Assembly (NCBI GenBank): GCA_964493715.1
Contig: CAZBPC010000014.1
Coordinates: 1 to 57,301, forward strand
Direction: 5' to 3'
Length of the DNA stretch: 57,301 bases
DNA from: an uncultured archaeon
Lineage (GTDB): Archaea > Asgardarchaeota > Lokiarchaeia > Sigyniarchaeales > SOKP01
The stretch's first letter is position 1. Every line of letters begins with the position of its first letter. A program made the position numbers and the translations under genes. Below, one piece after another: positions 9,403 through 12,299 of the stretch. The notes beneath the pieces are model-generated. The model worked only from the letters and a program-made list of their open reading frames with translations, did no database searches and had not been told where the DNA came from.

Positions 9403-11055
9403 ATGAAGGAGCTATTTTTAGGGCTTGATTGTTCCACTCAAGGGCTTACCGGGATTTTATTTGATTTCAATTCTTTTCAAATCATTCAGAAATATGAAGT
9501 GATCTATGATAAAGATTTGGCTCATTACAAAACTCAAAACGGAGTTTATATACTTGATGATGGAATTACGGTTCATTCAAATCCAATCATGTGGGTAGAA
9601 GCCTTAGAACTTTTACTTCATAAAATGATGAAGGATAAAATAGCAATGAATACAATTTTAGCTATTTCTGGTTCGGCCCAACAACATGGTACCGTATATC
9701 TCAATGATACATTTGAAAAAAGACTCAAAAATTTGAATTCTAACTCTAATTTAAGCGATCAAATAAATGGGACATTTTCACGAGAAACAAGTCCTGTGTG
9801 GATGGATTCGAGCACTTCAAAACAATGTCAAGAAATTAGAGAAAAATTGGGAGGTAGTAAAAATGTGATTAAACTCACGGGTTCAAATACTTTTGAACGA
9901 TTTTCAGGTCCCCAAATAAGAAAATTCTACCAACATCAACCAGAACAATATGCCAAAACGCATGTGATTCATTTAATCAGCTCTTATATGGCTTCTATAT
10001 TGTTAGGAAAGAATGCTCCTATTGATCACGGAGATGGTGCAGGAATGAATTTAATGAATATCACCATCAATCAATGGGATCAAGACGCTATGGAAGCAAC
10101 AGCACCAAATTTACTCCTAAAATTGCCTTCTCTTGTCAAATCTTATGAAATTATAGGAAAAATTGCTCCTTATTTTAATGAGAAATATGGGTTTTCGTCA
10201 AAGACGTTACTAATAGCTTGGTCAGGAGATAATCCAAATAGCTTGATAGGGGTGGGAATGACCTCCAAAGGGAAAGCAGCAATTAGTTTAGGAACGAGTG
10301 ATACATATTTTGGATATATGAAACAACTATCTCTCGATTATAAAGGAGAAGGGCACGTATTTGGTGCTCCTACGGGTGATTATATGAGTTTAATATGTTT
10401 TAAGAATGGCTCATTAGCAAGGGAGGAGATTAAAAATCAATTTAGTTTAACTTGGGAACAATTTTCCAGCATGTTACTCAGCACATCTCCAGGTAATAAT
10501 GGAAATATCATGCTACCCTACTTTTTTCCAGAAATAGTCCCTCTTGTACTAAACCCTAAAGTATATCGATTTGGGTTTAATGAGAATGATCCAGAAATAA
10601 ACGTGAGAGCTATTATAGAAGCACAATTCTTATCGATGAAATTACATTCAAGATGGATTGGTGAAAAAGCTAGTGAAATCCATGCAACTGGGGGAGCATC
10701 AATAAATACAGAGATCATGCGAGTTGCCGCCGATATATTTAACTCACCCGTACGTATTTTTGAACTCACGAACTCAGCAGCTCTAGGAGCAGCTATAAGA
10801 AGTGCGAAATCTTTCTATGATTCGGTCCACAAAGATAAAAATTGGACTGAAATTAATGAAAGCGTATTAAAATTACTTGTTAAAAAAATTATATACCCAA
10901 ATGAAAAAGTCAAAGAATTATACGAAGAAATGCTCCTCTTATATGAAAAATGCGAAGATTATGTCCTTAGAAAAGCTGAAAATCCCGAAATTTTTAGACA
11001 GAGATTTAAAACCAAATATTTGAAGGAACATTTAAAAAATTCTAAAAATATTTAA
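9403..11055 (+). CDS. xylulokinase (FGGY family, XYLB/Xks1-like subtype)
   Basis: LGLDCSTQ, ISGSAQQHGTVY, WMDSST..QC, ERFSGPQIRK, GDNPNSL, SLGTSDT, FKNGSLARE, ATGGAS. Confidence 0.88.
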   Translation: MKELFLGLDCSTQGLTGILFDFNSFQIIQKYEVIYDKDLAHYKTQNGVYILDDGITVHSNPIMWVEALELLLHKMMKDKIAMNTILAISGSAQQHGTVYLNDTFEKRLKNLNSNSNLSDQINGTFSRETSPVWMDSSTSKQCQEIREKLGGSKNVIKLTGSNTFERFSGPQIRKFYQHQPEQYAKTHVIHLISSYMASILLGKNAPIDHGDGAGMNLMNITINQWDQDAMEATAPNLLLKLPSLVKSYEIIGKIAPYFNEKYGFSSKTLLIAWSGDNPNSLIGVGMTSKGKAAISLGTSDTYFGYMKQLSLDYKGEGHVFGAPTGDYMSLICFKNGSLAREEIKNQFSLTWEQFSSMLLSTSPGNNGNIMLPYFFPEIVPLVLNPKVYRFGFNENDPEINVRAIIEAQFLSMKLHSRWIGEKASEIHATGGASINTEIMRVAADIFNSPVRIFELTNSAALGAAIRSAKSFYDSVHKDKNWTEINESVLKLLVKKIIYPNEKVKELYEEMLLLYEKCEDYVLRKAENPEIFRQRFKTKYLKEHLKNSKNI

Positions 11056-11101
11056 TCTTAAATTATGTATATTAATATAAATAAAATTTTAACCAATTAT
11101 A

Positions 11102-11296
11102 ATGACGTCTGAACTTTTAGAACCATCTAGAAATAAAAAAACACTTTACATTCTCCTTGCGGCAGTCATCATATCAGCTATTTTGATTATCTTGATCTCT
11201 GTAAATATGGCTACTACATATCCAATAGATGACGGAGGCGGATGAGGATGTTTTATAATTCCACACATCACCAAGTTATTAGGGTTATTACTTTAA
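11102..11296 (+). CDS. small single-pass membrane protein, candidate selenoprotein (in-frame TGA at 11243-11245)
   Basis: MTSELLEPSRNKKTLYILLAAVIISAILIILISVNMATTYPIDDGGG-TGA-GCFIIPHITKLLGLLL-TAA; clear TM helix; SECIS-like hairpin just downstream; 47 aa if TGA is a stop, 64 aa with Sec. Confidence 0.65.
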
Positions 11297-11344
11297 ATGT
11301 GAATGATTCTTGTGAAAAAATGATGGTCACGAGAGGACTGCCTT
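11296..11344 (+). promoter_or_regulatory. SECIS-like element (eukaryote/Lokiarchaeota type)
   Basis: AUGA 11303-11306; stem UCUUGUGA (11308-15)/UCACGAGA (11327-34); loop AAAAAUGAUGG; GA 11336-37 giving tandem G.A/A.G pairs; lower helix weak. Confidence 0.6.
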
Positions 11345-11501
11345 GCTCGGGCAATATTTGGTGAAAAACATAATAAAAATGTATCACAAAATTTTTAATA
11401 TGATTACTATTATAATTAGTATTATTCCTCTATAAATTGAAAATTCTTATAAATTTTCAAAACCTCACAAATTAAGTCAATAGCGATTAAGGTGAAAAAG
11501 T

Positions 11502-12299
11502 ATCTCGAAAGAAATTCCTGAAAATGTTAAAGAAGCACTTCGATCTATTGGACTCACTGACTATGAAATTGCCATATATCTCACACTCATAAGCAAAGGT
11601 CCAATGGATGCGAGAGAGCTCTCTGATGCCTCAGGAGTTCCATACTCGCGGATCTATAACATCTTAACTCAACTGGAAAAAGATAAAATGTGGATTTTAA
11701 AAGAGGAATCATCCCGTCCCTCGAAGTATTTTTCAAAAAGTCCAGATGAAGCATTAGTGATAGCAAAAAAACAATATAACGAAAGCTTCGATGAACATTC
11801 AAACAAGATAATCCATGAACTCACCCCTATATATGAATCACATGATACTCCTATAAAAGTTGCTTTATATATCCATCGAGGTCGAAATGCGTGTATTAGT
11901 CGCGGTCTTTCTTTAATAAATCAAGCACACAACTCAATATACTTAGTGTGCCCCGAACATGAATTTTTAGACATATTCTATGATGATGCTAAAAAAGCTA
12001 GAGCTCGAGGTGTGACAGACATTAAAATTTTAGTTGAAGAAAGCTCGCTTAAGGACAAGAAATTCCACGATATACTCAAGAAATATTCTGAAATAGCTAT
12101 TATTCGCTCTAGGGATCAAGTATTTGGAACATGCATAGTCATGGATGAAGGAGAAGATGCATTTATTATATTAACACAAAAATTCTTTAAAGGTCTCAGT
12201 TATTTTGGTGCGTTAACTGATCATGTCGCCTTCGGTCCCGCAGCTAATTATTATTTTGATTATTTATACAAATCCGCAAAAGAAGTTGTATTAAAGTAG
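11502..12299 (+). CDS. TrmB family transcription regulator
   Basis: the frame extends upstream of ATG 11604 as ISKEIPENVKEALRSIGLTDYEIAIYLTLISKGP, then MDARELSDASGVPYSRIYNILTQL (TrmB HTH); start codon uncertain (see findings). Confidence 0.85.
   Translation: MSKEIPENVKEALRSIGLTDYEIAIYLTLISKGPMDARELSDASGVPYSRIYNILTQLEKDKMWILKEESSRPSKYFSKSPDEALVIAKKQYNESFDEHSNKIIHELTPIYESHDTPIKVALYIHRGRNACISRGLSLINQAHNSIYLVCPEHEFLDIFYDDAKKARARGVTDIKILVEESSLKDKKFHDILKKYSEIAIIRSRDQVFGTCIVMDEGEDAFIILTQKFFKGLSYFGALTDHVAFGPAANYYFDYLYKSAKEVVLK

What the first reader, a model, noticed from the sequence alone, without database searches (positions are those of the whole stretch)
11102..11344. Hidden candidate selenoprotein: single-TM GGG-U-G-C peptide with a 3'-UTR eukaryote-type SECIS (SelK/SelS-like)
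Seen: an unannotated ORF (ATG 11102) encodes a basic N-terminus, a TM helix, then YPIDDGGG, TGA (11243-45), and continues in frame GCFIIPHITKLLGLLL to TAA 11294-96. Seven nt later is AUGA-U-UCUUGUGA-AAAAAUGAUGG-UCACGAGA-G-GA. That gives a tandem G.A/A.G core, an upper helix of about 9 bp and an A-run opening the loop, about 58 nt downstream of the UGA. Established: Lokiarchaeota use eukaryote-like 3'-UTR SECIS elements, and eukaryotic SELENOK/SELENOS are small single-TM proteins with Sec in a GGUG motif. The archaeal selenoproteins I know are mainly Hdr/Vhu/Fdh-type enzymes and SelD. Inference: this is a 64-aa membrane selenoprotein with a UxC redox motif, possibly a prokaryotic counterpart of the SelK/SelS class, invisible to standard gene callers.
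Basis: partly seen in the sequence, partly recalled or inferred. Interest (0 to 1): 0.95.

Follow-up and report, generated by a model that had tools for sequence, protein, structure and literature searches.

The report
New small membrane selenoprotein family
The window holds a real but overlooked gene for a 64-residue membrane-anchored peptide that carries selenocysteine, the founding member of a family conserved in Lokiarchaeia-type Asgard archaea and absent from the surveys of archaeal selenoproteins that I read.

Summary
ATG 11102 opens a frame with TGA at 11243-45 that runs on to TAA 11294-96. A hairpin at 11303-11337 follows six bases later.

- **The genome uses selenocysteine.** It has tRNA-Sec, SepSecS, two TGA-containing SelD genes, and PSTK- and EFSec-like genes.
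- **The hairpin is a SECIS.** It has every published feature of the Lokiarchaeal SECIS. It matches those behind FrhD, VhuU and Prx-like genes in the same genome. A covariance model built without it scores it 30.4 bits; the next best in the window is 18.5.
- **The peptide is conserved.** It is found in 36 of 41 genomes of the genus, always with the in-frame TGA, and in sister genera and a second order of the class. All verified copies have a SECIS with compensatory changes.
- **Databases hold it truncated.** Public protein sets contain it cut off at "...GGG".
- **Predicted anatomy.** N-terminus inside, one membrane helix, then a glycine-rich Sec-x-Cys pair outside.
- **SelK/SelS homology is not supported.** There is no profile match, the predicted orientation is opposite, and there is no long linker.

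Function is inferred as a redox or soft-metal centre. I found no description of it in print.

The parts
11102..11296 (+). Coding sequence of the 64-residue selenopeptide, including the TAA stop, read with UGA 11243-45 as Sec.
   Evidence: Orthologues with the same start (M-T/P/S...), one in-frame TGA and a 45-68 aa frame were found in 36 of 41 genomes of the genus. 18 of these were verified by eye.
11141..11203 (+). Transmembrane helix (residues about 14-34). It is preceded by R-N-K-K and followed by acidic or polar residues.
   Evidence: Hydropathy and charge count: K/R in the N-flank 196 against 5 in the C-flank over 47 members, and 47 of 47 members have more on the N side. The AlphaFold2 model has a helix at 12-38 with block pLDDT 72-85.
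11243..11245 (+). UGA read as selenocysteine (residue 48), directly after GGG.
   Evidence: An in-frame TGA sits at the aligned column in all 18 aligned genus members, in 36 of 36 strong genus hits, and in the sister genera and a second order.
11249..11251 (+). Cys50 (TGT), partner of Sec in the U-x-C pair.
   Evidence: Motif tally over 47 members: UxC 30, U-x3-C 11, UC 2, CxU 2, none 2. Two genomes have the swapped order C-G-U. Others have C-x-x-U.
11252..11293 (+). Hydrophobic C-terminal tail (FIIPHITKLLGLLL). It varies in length and sequence across the family.
   Evidence: Tail length is 11-19 aa in the genus, 7-61 aa in genus g22 and 1 aa in g12. Constraint is weak: differences by codon position are 224/211/266. 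The AlphaFold2 model has a short helix at 52-63 at low confidence.
11303..11337 (+). Type I Lokiarchaeal SECIS: AUGA, 9-bp stem (11307-15 with 11327-35), 11-nt loop AAAAAUGAUGG, then GA.
   Evidence: Model R1 matches 11299-11340 at 30.4 bits. The same build stands behind FrhD, VhuU and Prx-like genes of this genome. On 18 family copies, 97.2% of cells are paired and 5 of 12 pairs have changes on both sides. Published features are in PMC4989117, section 11.
11339..11353 (+). Small second hairpin (UGCCU/GGGCA) directly after the SECIS GA. Its role is unknown.
   Evidence: RNAfold. The matching CC..GG hairpin is 95.8% paired over 18 family copies (helix 2). It is also seen by eye behind the other type I SECIS of the genome.

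Best explanation
This is a genuine, previously overlooked selenoprotein gene.

**How it is made.** The mRNA carries a Lokiarchaeal, eukaryote-like SECIS six bases after its stop codon. In a cell with tRNA-Sec, PSTK, SepSecS, SelD and an EFSec-like factor, the SECIS directs Sec insertion at UGA 11243-45, 60 nt upstream. The ribosome therefore makes a 64-residue peptide rather than a 47-residue one.

**What the peptide looks like (predicted).**

- It is a signal-anchor membrane protein.
- A short basic N-terminus lies in the cytoplasm.
- It has one transmembrane helix.
- 5-14 residues beyond the helix, on the outer face of the membrane, sits a flexible glycine run that presents a Sec/Cys pair (mostly U-x-C).
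- A short, variable hydrophobic tail follows.

**What is shown and what is inferred.**

- Shown by computation: the frame, the SECIS class, the Sec machinery, and conservation of the UGA, the Cys and the SECIS.
- Inferred: that Sec is actually inserted, and the topology.
- Inferred function: the Sec/Cys pair cycles between selenol/thiol and selenenylsulfide as a membrane-surface redox centre. My odds for redox are about 0.45.
- The main alternative function is binding of a soft metal or metalloid, at about 0.25.
For: **1. Sec system in the genome.**

- tRNA-Sec at C26:15797-15889.
- SepSecS next to it, 476 bits.
- Two SelD genes, each with one in-frame TGA.
- A PSTK-like gene at 168.9 bits and an EFSec-like gene at 231.3 bits about 3 kb from the tRNA-Sec. 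Both are below the curated cut-offs.

**2. The hairpin is a SECIS.**

- It meets all the lokiSECIS features listed in PMC4989117 section 11: AUGA, 9-bp stem, 11-nt loop, five leading A, last loop base G, GA after the stem, and closeness to the stop.
- Six elements of identical build stand 0-11 nt after TGA-containing ORFs in this genome. They are two FrhD/VhuD, one VhuU, one Prx-like and two unknown 'UU' proteins.
- Model R1, built from those six, gives the candidate 30.4 bits. The next best in the window is 18.5, and the best non-SECIS hit among the genome candidates that were scored is 18.1.

**3. Conservation.**

- 36 of 41 genus genomes have a hit at E <= 7.7e-7, each with one in-frame TGA.
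- With a wider profile, 95 of 398 genomes of the phylum have a hit, and 84 of 132 in the same taxonomic family.
- Two of 3 genomes of another order carry clear ..GGGGUGC.. members.
- SepSecS is present in 128 of 133 genomes of that taxonomic family.

**4. SECIS across the family.**

- A SECIS was found behind 45 of 47 parsed members.
- AUGA and GA are invariant in 18 of 18 aligned copies.
- Compensatory changes occur in 5 of 12 pairs. 0 of 500 shuffles reach the observed covariation score. Slid controls are 35-57% paired against 97.2% observed.

**5. Cys partner.** A Cys lies within 4 residues of the Sec in 45 of 47 members. In two it is in swapped order (C-G-U), which fits a working pair.

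**6. Database proteins.** 21 of 23 hits in 1.84 billion representatives are 45-95 aa proteins whose match ends at or within 4 residues of their last residue. 9 of the 10 sequences I read end in the glycine run.
Against: - There is no evidence of expression or of selenium in the protein.
- The usual check by Cys-containing homologues is nearly empty. One 77-aa candidate, P0022, has GGGC, at E = 1.6e-4.
- The sequence after the UGA is only weakly constrained. Differences by codon position are 224/211/266, with 111 synonymous against 425 non-synonymous codon differences. In genus g12 only one codon follows the Sec.
- R1 scores the candidate lower (30.4 bits) than its six training elements (44-54 bits) and lower than C111 (35.9 bits).
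- Two of the six training elements belong to uncharacterised ORFs.
- The whole-genome run of R1 did not list the candidate, because only 150 of 2930 first-look candidates were scored.
- Rfam finds no SECIS.
- The topology rests on the positive-inside rule only. The AlphaFold2 model is of low confidence (mean pLDDT 64.5).
- Gene neighbours give no clue to function.
Confidence: 0.88

Rival explanations
1. The Sec/Cys pair, with His in some tails, binds a soft metal or metalloid (for example Hg, Cu(I), Cd, As, Ni) at the membrane surface. It would act as a scavenger, chaperone or sensor rather than cycle in redox reactions. The gene is still a real selenoprotein gene.
For: - U-x-C, UC, CxU and C-x-x-U variants all keep two soft ligands close together.
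- A His 6-7 residues after the Sec occurs in several genus members.
- In passages of bioRxiv 10.1101/2022.07.06.499078, CU, CC and CSC motifs in bacterial selenoproteins and transporters are read as contacts with heavy metals.
- There is a weak likeness to Pfam's FeoB-associated Cys-rich membrane protein in 3 of 18 members, best E = 0.18, which is not significant.
Against: - No metal transporter or resistance gene is a conserved neighbour.
- The His is not universal.
- Two g12 members have Sec alone (..GGGUG).
- No metal-binding family matches significantly.
Confidence: 0.25
2. Translation really stops at the UGA and gives a 47-residue membrane peptide. The hairpin would then be something else, such as a kink-turn site for L7Ae, a terminator or a stabiliser, or a SECIS relic that no longer works.
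For: - The tail after the UGA is weakly constrained and is reduced to one codon in g12.
- Cys-form homologues are almost absent.
- There are no expression data.
- Gene callers produce 47-aa proteins.
Against: - The element has the same class-specific build as the SECIS of known selenoprotein genes in the same genome.
- It is kept with compensatory changes wherever the peptide occurs.
- Among the elements of this build found in the genome, the ones that the model separates from background stand behind TGA-containing ORFs, except C111, where the ORF is unclear.
- A Cys just after, or just before, the TGA is kept in 45 of 47 members. The U-x-C and U-x3-C variants (for example GC and PSTC) differ by whole codons, so the frame is kept.
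- The frame stays open from the UGA to the SECIS in all 28 parsed genus members.
Confidence: 0.06
3. The ORF is mainly a regulatory upstream reading frame. How well its UGA is decoded reports selenium supply and tunes the TrmB-like regulator gene downstream.
For: A TrmB-like gene follows on the same strand in 29 of 30 genus loci. In the window, that gene lacks a canonical start codon at the conserved start position.
Against: - The pairing is lost outside the genus: 0 of 10 loci of g12, g22 and g23 have the TrmB gene nearby.
- The peptide's own features (basic N-end, helix, Gly-Sec-Cys) are conserved there all the same.
- More than 130 nt of AT-rich spacer separate the SECIS from the TrmB frame.
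Confidence: 0.04

Closest known systems
Lokiarchaeal selenoprotein genes with a type I eukaryote-like SECIS: VhuU, HdrA-VhuD/FrhD, Prx-like (Mariotti 2016, PMC4989117; Huang 2024, PMC11227280)
   Same: - Same recoding signal: AUGA, 9-bp stem, 11-nt loop starting with A5 and ending in G, then GA.
- Same position at the stop codon. In some family members the stop UGA is the UGA of the AUGA core, as reported for VhuU.1.
- Same lineage and same Sec machinery.
- VhuU is also a very small selenoprotein.
   Different: - The protein family is different and matches no Pfam or NCBIfam model.
- It is membrane-anchored and predicted to expose Sec outside the cell.
- It is not part of a hydrogenase or Hdr cluster.
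- It is almost without Cys-form relatives.
- It is not among the 7 Asgard or 11 archaeal families listed in the papers read.
Eukaryotic selenoproteins K and S (features recalled, not from a call)
   Same: - One transmembrane helix near the N-terminus.
- Small size.
- A glycine-rich stretch leading to a GGUG-like Sec.
- In genus g12 the Sec is the penultimate residue (..NGGGUG/C-stop).
- As I recall, SelS has a Cys partner that forms a selenenylsulfide.
- SECIS in the 3' UTR.
   Different: - No profile match.
- Predicted orientation is opposite: Sec outside, 47 of 47 members.
- Sec lies 5-14 residues after the helix, not after a disordered domain of about 50 or more residues.
- Most members carry a hydrophobic tail after the Sec.
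- The likeness rests on a few low-complexity residues, so homology can be neither shown nor excluded.
C-terminal Gly-Cys-Sec-Gly redox arm of animal thioredoxin reductase (recalled)
   Same: A flexible glycine-flanked Sec/Cys pair that could form a selenenylsulfide and carry electrons to or from a partner.
   Different: There it is the tail of a large soluble flavoenzyme with adjacent Cys-Sec. Here it is a stand-alone membrane peptide with mostly U-x-C spacing and no known partner.
Pfam PF12669, FeoB-associated Cys-rich membrane protein
   Same: A tiny protein with one helix followed by a Gly/Cys-rich motif. There are weak hits for 3 of 18 members and 2 of 24 members.
   Different: The best E-value is 0.18, far below significance. 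No FeoB gene was seen beside the loci examined. Membership is not supported.
Selenoproteins found because databases hold them cut off at the Sec codon (Haft and co-workers, bioRxiv 10.1101/2022.07.06.499078, passages read)
   Same: The same way of hiding: stored proteins end exactly at the Sec position. There is a Cys close to the Sec.
   Different: Those are bacterial families with bacterial SECIS inside the coding sequence, and they are unrelated in sequence.

Membership tests
Lokiarchaeal type I SECIS (lokiSECIS, PMC4989117 section 11) | AUGA directly before the stem and GA directly after it | tested here: met
   ATGA at 11303-06 and GA at 11336-37. Both are invariant in 18 of 18 family copies.
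Lokiarchaeal type I SECIS (lokiSECIS, PMC4989117 section 11) | 9-bp stem and 11-nt apical loop | tested here: met
   The RNAfold minimum-energy structure has 9 pairs and an 11-nt loop. On 18 copies, the 8 pairs tested are 97.9% paired, and 4 of them have changes on both sides.
Lokiarchaeal type I SECIS (lokiSECIS, PMC4989117 section 11) | The first five loop bases are adenines and the last loop base is G | tested here: met
   The loop is AAAAAUGAUGG. Family loops are A/G-A-A-A-A...G.
Lokiarchaeal type I SECIS (lokiSECIS, PMC4989117 section 11) | Lies close to the end of a coding sequence that holds an in-frame UGA | tested here: met
   It lies 6 nt after TAA in the window. The range is -4 to +9 nt in 27 of 28 parsed genus members.
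Lokiarchaeal type I SECIS (lokiSECIS, PMC4989117 section 11) | Scores with a covariance model of accepted SECIS from the same genome | tested here: met
   R1 was built from 6 elements without the candidate. It gives 30.4 bits, E = 1.1e-4 in the window, with the next hit at 18.5. The training elements score 44-54 bits. The published lokiSECIS model itself was not available.
Lokiarchaeal type I SECIS (lokiSECIS, PMC4989117 section 11) | Supports Sec insertion | not testable with these tools
   This needs a reporter or labelling experiment.
Selenoprotein gene (UGA decoded as Sec) | Sec synthesis and insertion machinery in the same genome | tested here: met
   tRNA-Sec, SepSecS and SelD are over the curated cut-offs. 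PSTK-like and EFSec-like genes are below the cut-offs but are the best hits, and the EFSec-like gene lies beside the tRNA-Sec.
Selenoprotein gene (UGA decoded as Sec) | The in-frame UGA is conserved at the same position in orthologues | tested here: met
   36 of 36 strong genus hits carry one TGA. It falls in the aligned column in 18 of 18 and in 24 of 24, counting the two swapped C-G-U members at the neighbouring pair position.
Selenoprotein gene (UGA decoded as Sec) | Coding signal continues after the UGA | tested here: inconclusive
   For: a Cys lies within 4 residues in 45 of 47 members, indels are in frame, and the frame is open up to the SECIS. Against: the tail is weakly constrained (224/211/266 by codon position), and only 1 codon follows in g12.
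Selenoprotein gene (UGA decoded as Sec) | Homologues with Cys in place of Sec exist | tested here: inconclusive
   There is one candidate, P0022 (77 aa..GGGC.., E = 1.6e-4), among 23 hits in 1.84 billion representatives. No hit with a Cys codon at the Sec column was noticed in the genome searches.
Selenoprotein K / selenoprotein S | Sequence-profile match to the Pfam families of SelK or SelS | tested here: not met
   0 of 18 members match at E <= 10, and all 20 weak families are listed. In one search, with 24 members, only the first 25 of 47 weak families were shown, and none is SelK or SelS.
Selenoprotein K / selenoprotein S | Single transmembrane helix near the N-terminus of a small protein | tested here: met
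   The helix core has a median of 23 residues and starts at residue 13-19. The AlphaFold2 helix is at 12-38.
Selenoprotein K / selenoprotein S | Sec faces the cytosol (orientation recalled for SelK and SelS) | tested here: not met
   K/R count is 196 in the N-flank against 5 in the C-flank, and 47 of 47 members predict N-in and Sec-out. This is a prediction only.
Selenoprotein K / selenoprotein S | A long disordered Gly/Pro-rich domain between helix and Sec, with Sec at the extreme C-terminus (recalled) | tested here: not met
   Sec is 5-14 residues after the helix. It is penultimate only in the 4 g12 members. Elsewhere 7-61 residues follow it.
Pfam PF12669 FeoB-associated Cys-rich membrane protein | Profile match over the gathering score | tested here: not met
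   The best E-value is 0.18, in 3 of 18 members and 2 of 24 members.

The most novel reading that the evidence does not exclude
The family is the Asgard forerunner, or the first prokaryotic equivalent, of the eukaryotic SelK/SelS type of selenoprotein: a single-helix membrane anchor carrying a flexible glycine-rich Sec arm. If so, membrane-bound Sec arms as well as the eukaryote-like SECIS predate eukaryotes. This would overturn the statement that no eukaryote-specific selenoprotein family exists in Asgard archaea (PMC11227280, section 13). Short of that, it would still be the first membrane-anchored, outward-facing archaeal selenoprotein I know of, and it is almost never replaced by Cys.
Probability: 0.07. 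Interest if true: 0.95.

Novelty: new variant of a known kind. Interest (0 to 1): 0.72.

Why it matters
**It adds a new archaeal selenoprotein family.**

- In the passages and sections I read, the archaeal selenoproteome is put at 11 families, all soluble enzymes or their subunits (PMC13188914). Seven of them occur in Asgard archaea and were found by homology to known families (PMC11227280).
- This family is of a different sort: tiny, membrane-bound, apparently Sec-obligate, and confined to one lineage of Lokiarchaeia.
- It shows that SECIS-first searches still find what homology searches and gene callers miss.
- The genome named as holding the largest archaeal selenoproteome (isolate bin41) carries it too.

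**It gives a natural series for a spacing rule.**

- UGA-to-SECIS spacing in the family ranges from 43 to 121 nt.
- Where the tail shrinks to one codon, the SECIS moves away from the stop.
- This makes the proposed minimal-distance rule of the eukaryote-like SECIS testable.

**It bears on eukaryote origins.** Its outward likeness to SelK and SelS makes a question about the origin of eukaryotic membrane selenoproteins open to experiment.

Tried and rejected
- **Rfam.** There was no SECIS or other match at gathering scores over the whole window. At E <= 10 over 11000-11500 there were only three chance hits. PMC4989117 also reports that eukaryotic and archaeal SECIS models give no significant matches on Loki genes, so I do not count this as evidence against.
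- **Whole-genome run of model R1.** It did not list the candidate, because only 150 of 2930 first-look candidates were scored. I scored the window directly instead.
- **Fold energy alone.** Not significant.
- **Codon-position test of the tail.** Only a mild excess at third positions. The stop-codon count in the other frames is partly circular, so I do not use it as proof.
- **Gene neighbourhood.** The TrmB-like neighbour is kept in 29 of 30 genus loci and xylulokinase in 16 of 30. Neither is kept in 10 loci of other genera. The neighbours there are an ARMT1-like protein, an NUBPL-type ATPase, an MFS transporter and PGK. This gives no functional lead.
- **Sequencing runs.** No RNA holder is listed, and the 24 holders listed are DNA metagenomes. 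I did not use read laying, because contigs cannot show expression.
- **Structure.** The model is of low confidence and was used only for helix positions. No fold search was made.
- **Strict-regex search beside TrmB homologues in named records.** It found the peptide in 23 of 51 loci. The misses were not examined, and many are from other genera.
- **My parser.** It failed on 3 of 50 loci (L046, L062, L075). L046's genome (G010) was seen by eye to carry ..GEGUGC... L079 and L080 have only a weaker SECIS (6 of 8 pairs by eye) and failed the strict SECIS search.
- **Hits outside the taxonomic family in the phylum search (f2, f13, f18, f19).** They cover only the helix, lie in longer ORFs without TGA, and were not verified. 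I treat them as noise.
- **Literature.** Searches gave no description of such a peptide. I read:
  - PMC11227280: outline, sections 6, 13 and 14, and passages;
  - PMC4989117: passages;
  - PMC13188914: passages;
  - PMC11291895: passages;
  - bioRxiv 10.1101/2022.07.06.499078: passages.

  The supplementary tables of these papers were not seen and could list further candidates.
Full report
**What is in the sequence.**
- From ATG 11102 the frame gives a basic start (..SRNKK), a hydrophobic stretch, then YPIDDGGG.
- TGA follows at 11243-45, then GCFIIPHITKLLGLLL and TAA at 11294-96.
- Six bases later stands ATGA (11303-06). It is followed by a 9-bp stem with an 11-nt loop AAAAAUGAUGG, and then GA (11336-37). 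RNAfold draws exactly this.
- A second small hairpin follows at 11339-53.
- The fold energy by itself is unremarkable (z = -1.31), and Rfam reports nothing.

**The organism decodes UGA as Sec.** The window is contig C14 of a 3.68-Mb genome with 31% G+C.
- It has a tRNA-Sec directly beside SepSecS.
- It has two SelD genes, each with an in-frame TGA.
- It has a PSTK-like gene, and an EFSec-like gene about 3 kb from the tRNA-Sec. Both are best hits but fall below the curated cut-offs.
- Relatives found through the neighbouring gene are named Promethearchaeota or Promethearchaeia MAGs. I recall this as the newer name for Lokiarchaeota; I did not look the synonymy up.

**The hairpin belongs to the SECIS class of this genome.**
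- A simple pattern scan of the genome returned 44 loose matches.
- Those with an 8-bp core stem and an 11-nt loop starting with adenines include six that stand 0-11 nt after ORFs with in-frame TGA: two FrhD/VhuD, one VhuU-like (..DCULSC..), one Prx-like (..WUSHC..), and two unknown proteins with adjacent UU.
- The two SelD genes carry the longer type II form.
- All of this agrees with the published lokiSECIS: AUGA, 9-bp stem, 11-nt loop, five leading adenines, a final loop G, GA, and closeness to the stop (PMC4989117, section 11).
- A covariance model built from the six elements without the candidate found its six training elements at 44-54 bits in the whole genome. It also found one more element on C111 at 35.9 bits, and then nothing above 18.1 bits.
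- That run scored only 150 of 2930 first-look candidates and did not list the candidate.
- Run on the window with filters off, the model gives the candidate 30.4 bits (E = 1.1e-4 for the window) against 18.5 for the next hit.

**The gene is a conserved family, always with TGA.**
- A six-frame search with the read-through peptide in 41 related genomes gave hits with one in-frame TGA. I verified 18 by eye.
- Each is a 61-68 aa frame with M..(L/F)(E/Q)..R.KK, a helix, ..GGG-U-x-C (GC, PC, LC, QC, IC) or U-PST-C, and a hydrophobic tail.
- With a profile of these (A1), 36 of the 41 genomes of the genus have a hit at E <= 7.7e-7, each with one TGA. G056 has an extra TAA near the end.
- The misses were G003, G011 and G050 (81-88% complete), G006 (87% complete, weak hit only) and G053 (100% complete). 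G053 later proved to hold a divergent copy..CLPUG...
- In the order, 62 of 152 genomes matched.
- I fetched 20 loci from three other genera and could read 19. Genus g22 has ..GG-U-(G/A/V/L/P)-C.. with longer tails, and two genomes have the swapped C-G-U. Genus g12 has 49-51 aa proteins that end ..NGGGUC or ..NGGGUG.
- A wider profile (A5) found 95 of 398 genomes of the phylum:
  - 84 of 132 in the same taxonomic family: g1 36/40, g12 4/5, g22 40/53, g23 2/7, g14 1/1, g21 1/10;
  - 2 of 3 genomes of another order, which carry clear 46-aa members..DGGGGUGC...
- Other hits outside the family cover only the helix and have no TGA. I regard them as noise and did not verify them.
- SepSecS is present in 128 of 133 genomes of the family, including genera without the peptide. 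The peptide is therefore a lineage-specific addition within a Sec-using clade.
- Four of the five genomes without a SepSecS hit do carry the peptide. They are 79-95% complete.

**The SECIS travels with it and covaries.**
- A strict search found a SECIS behind 45 of 47 parsed members.
- In the alignment of 18 genus copies, ATGA and GA are invariant.
- For the two helices, 97.2% of cells pair, and 5 of 12 pairs show changes on both sides. 0 of 500 shuffles reach the observed covariation score, and slid controls pair at 35-57%.
- The sequences are related, so these numbers are supportive rather than probabilities.

**Spacing.**
- UGA to AUGA is 51-60 nt in the genus, 47-121 nt in g22 and 43-45 nt in g12 (median 59).
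- In several genus members the stop UGA is itself the UGA of the AUGA core, as reported for VhuU.1.
- In g12 only one codon follows the Sec, and there the SECIS sits 34-36 nt after the stop.
- This pattern fits the minimal-distance rule proposed for lokiSECIS (PMC4989117, discussion passage). That reading is my inference.

**How databases see it.**
- A profile search of 1.84 billion representative proteins gave 23 hits at E <= 0.001.
- 21 of them are 45-95 aa proteins whose match ends at or within 4 residues of their last residue.
- 9 of the 10 I read end in the glycine run just before the Sec position.
- P0005 is a 1052-aa repeat protein, which I take as low-complexity noise.
- P0022 (77 aa) reads through ..GGGC.. 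and may be a rare Cys form.

**The protein.**
- The helix core has a median of 23 residues.
- The 12 residues before it hold 196 K/R over 47 members. The 12 after it hold 5 K/R and 62 D/E. All 47 members have the excess on the N side.
- By the positive-inside rule, the N-terminus is cytoplasmic and the Sec lies outside, 5-14 residues from the helix.
- A Cys lies within four residues of the Sec in 45 of 47 members: UxC 30, U-x3-C 11, UC 2, CxU 2. Further variants, C-x-x-U and U-C-C, appear.
- That the two residues can swap places argues that they work as a pair.
- AlphaFold2 on the 18-row alignment gives a helix at 12-38, a loop over the Gly-Sec-Cys stretch, and a short helix at 52-63, at mean pLDDT 64.5.
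- The tail is poorly conserved.

**Comparison with known families.**
- Pfam gives no family for the window's peptide. For the 18 members it gives only weak, helix-driven noise, with no SelK or SelS family among the 20 listed.
- The wider set gives the same picture, although only 25 of 47 families were shown. NCBIfam has no model.
- The papers read list seven Asgard and eleven archaeal selenoprotein families, none of them a membrane peptide.
- They state that no eukaryote-specific family was found in Asgard archaea.
- A SECIS-based scan of the first Loki data found only HdrA, VhuD, VhuU and PrxL.
- I found no description in searches. Supplementary tables were not available.

**Mechanism and rivals.**
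- I commit to SECIS-directed Sec insertion that gives an N-in/C-out anchor peptide with an outward Sec/Cys centre (0.88 for a real selenoprotein gene).
- For function I favour a selenenylsulfide redox centre (about 0.45) over soft-metal binding (about 0.25). Neither has direct support.
- The other rivals are termination at the UGA with a non-SECIS hairpin (0.06) and a selenium-sensing upstream ORF for the TrmB-like gene (0.04). The second fits the genus-level synteny (29 of 30) but not the other genera (0 of 10).
- Homology to SelK or SelS remains a bold possibility (about 0.07). The likeness is one helix plus a GGUG-like motif. Against it stand the opposite predicted orientation, the short linker and the lack of any profile match.

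**Limits.**
- There are no expression or protein data. No RNA holder is listed among the sequencing runs (see Tried and rejected).
- The genomes are related, so the counts are not independent events.
- Topology and function are predictions.
- The features of SelK, SelS and thioredoxin reductase are recalled, not taken from a call.
- The search of earlier findings, the listing of cluster members and the protein atlas could not be used.

Noticed in passing
L039:302-709 (-) = G000:C4, and L042:1221-1700 (+) = G000:C48: A second possible new selenoprotein family. These are soluble proteins of about 135-160 aa with two adjacent in-frame TGA (..HADUUADNF.. and ..DVGCUUEKV..). Each ends 6-7 nt before a strong lokiSECIS (54.1 and 51.4 bits). 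There is no significant Pfam match. It is not among the families listed in the papers read.
   Followed up: partly
G000:C111:7971-8013 (+), no locus fetched: A further lokiSECIS-like element (35.9 bits) with the usual CC..GG hairpin after it. The ORF it serves is unclear. A small zinc-ribbon-like frame ends ..RFK-TGA 34 nt upstream.
   Followed up: partly
window 11339-11353; alignment A2 columns 59-71: Every type I SECIS seen here is followed, 1-4 nt after the GA, by a short CC..GG hairpin, often ACCCCGCAAGGGU. This holds for the peptide family, and by eye for the FrhD, VhuU, Prx-like, UU and C111 elements. It is 95.8% paired in 18 copies. I did not see it mentioned in the passages of PMC4989117 that I read. 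It may stand in for the lower stem.
   Followed up: partly
L078, L091 (genus g22); L156, L157: The Sec/Cys pair occurs in swapped or shifted order: C-G-U instead of U-G-C in two genomes, and C-x-x-U in two others. Some genomes carry a second paralogue, for example ..GGUCC.. in L158.
   Followed up: partly
L074, L076, L077, L082 (genus g12): These members end one residue after the Sec (..NGGGUC-stop or ..NGGGUG-stop). Their SECIS lies 34-36 nt after the stop, so UGA to AUGA stays at 43-45 nt. This is a natural hint at a minimal spacing.
   Followed up: partly
window 11493-11606: The TrmB-like gene downstream is listed from ATG 11604, but its helix-turn-helix begins upstream. Relatives start 34 codons earlier at M/V-SKEIPE. 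In the window that codon is ATC (11502-04), and no ATG, GTG or TTG lies between the stop at 11493-95 and 11604. Either the start is non-canonical or the protein is shortened at its N-terminus.
   Followed up: partly
L120 (record named Promethearchaeota archaeon isolate bin41): PMC13188914 names this MAG as holding the largest known archaeal selenoproteome, 19 genes. It also carries a copy of the peptide gene..GGGUPSTC.., so that count appears to be at least one short.
   Followed up: no
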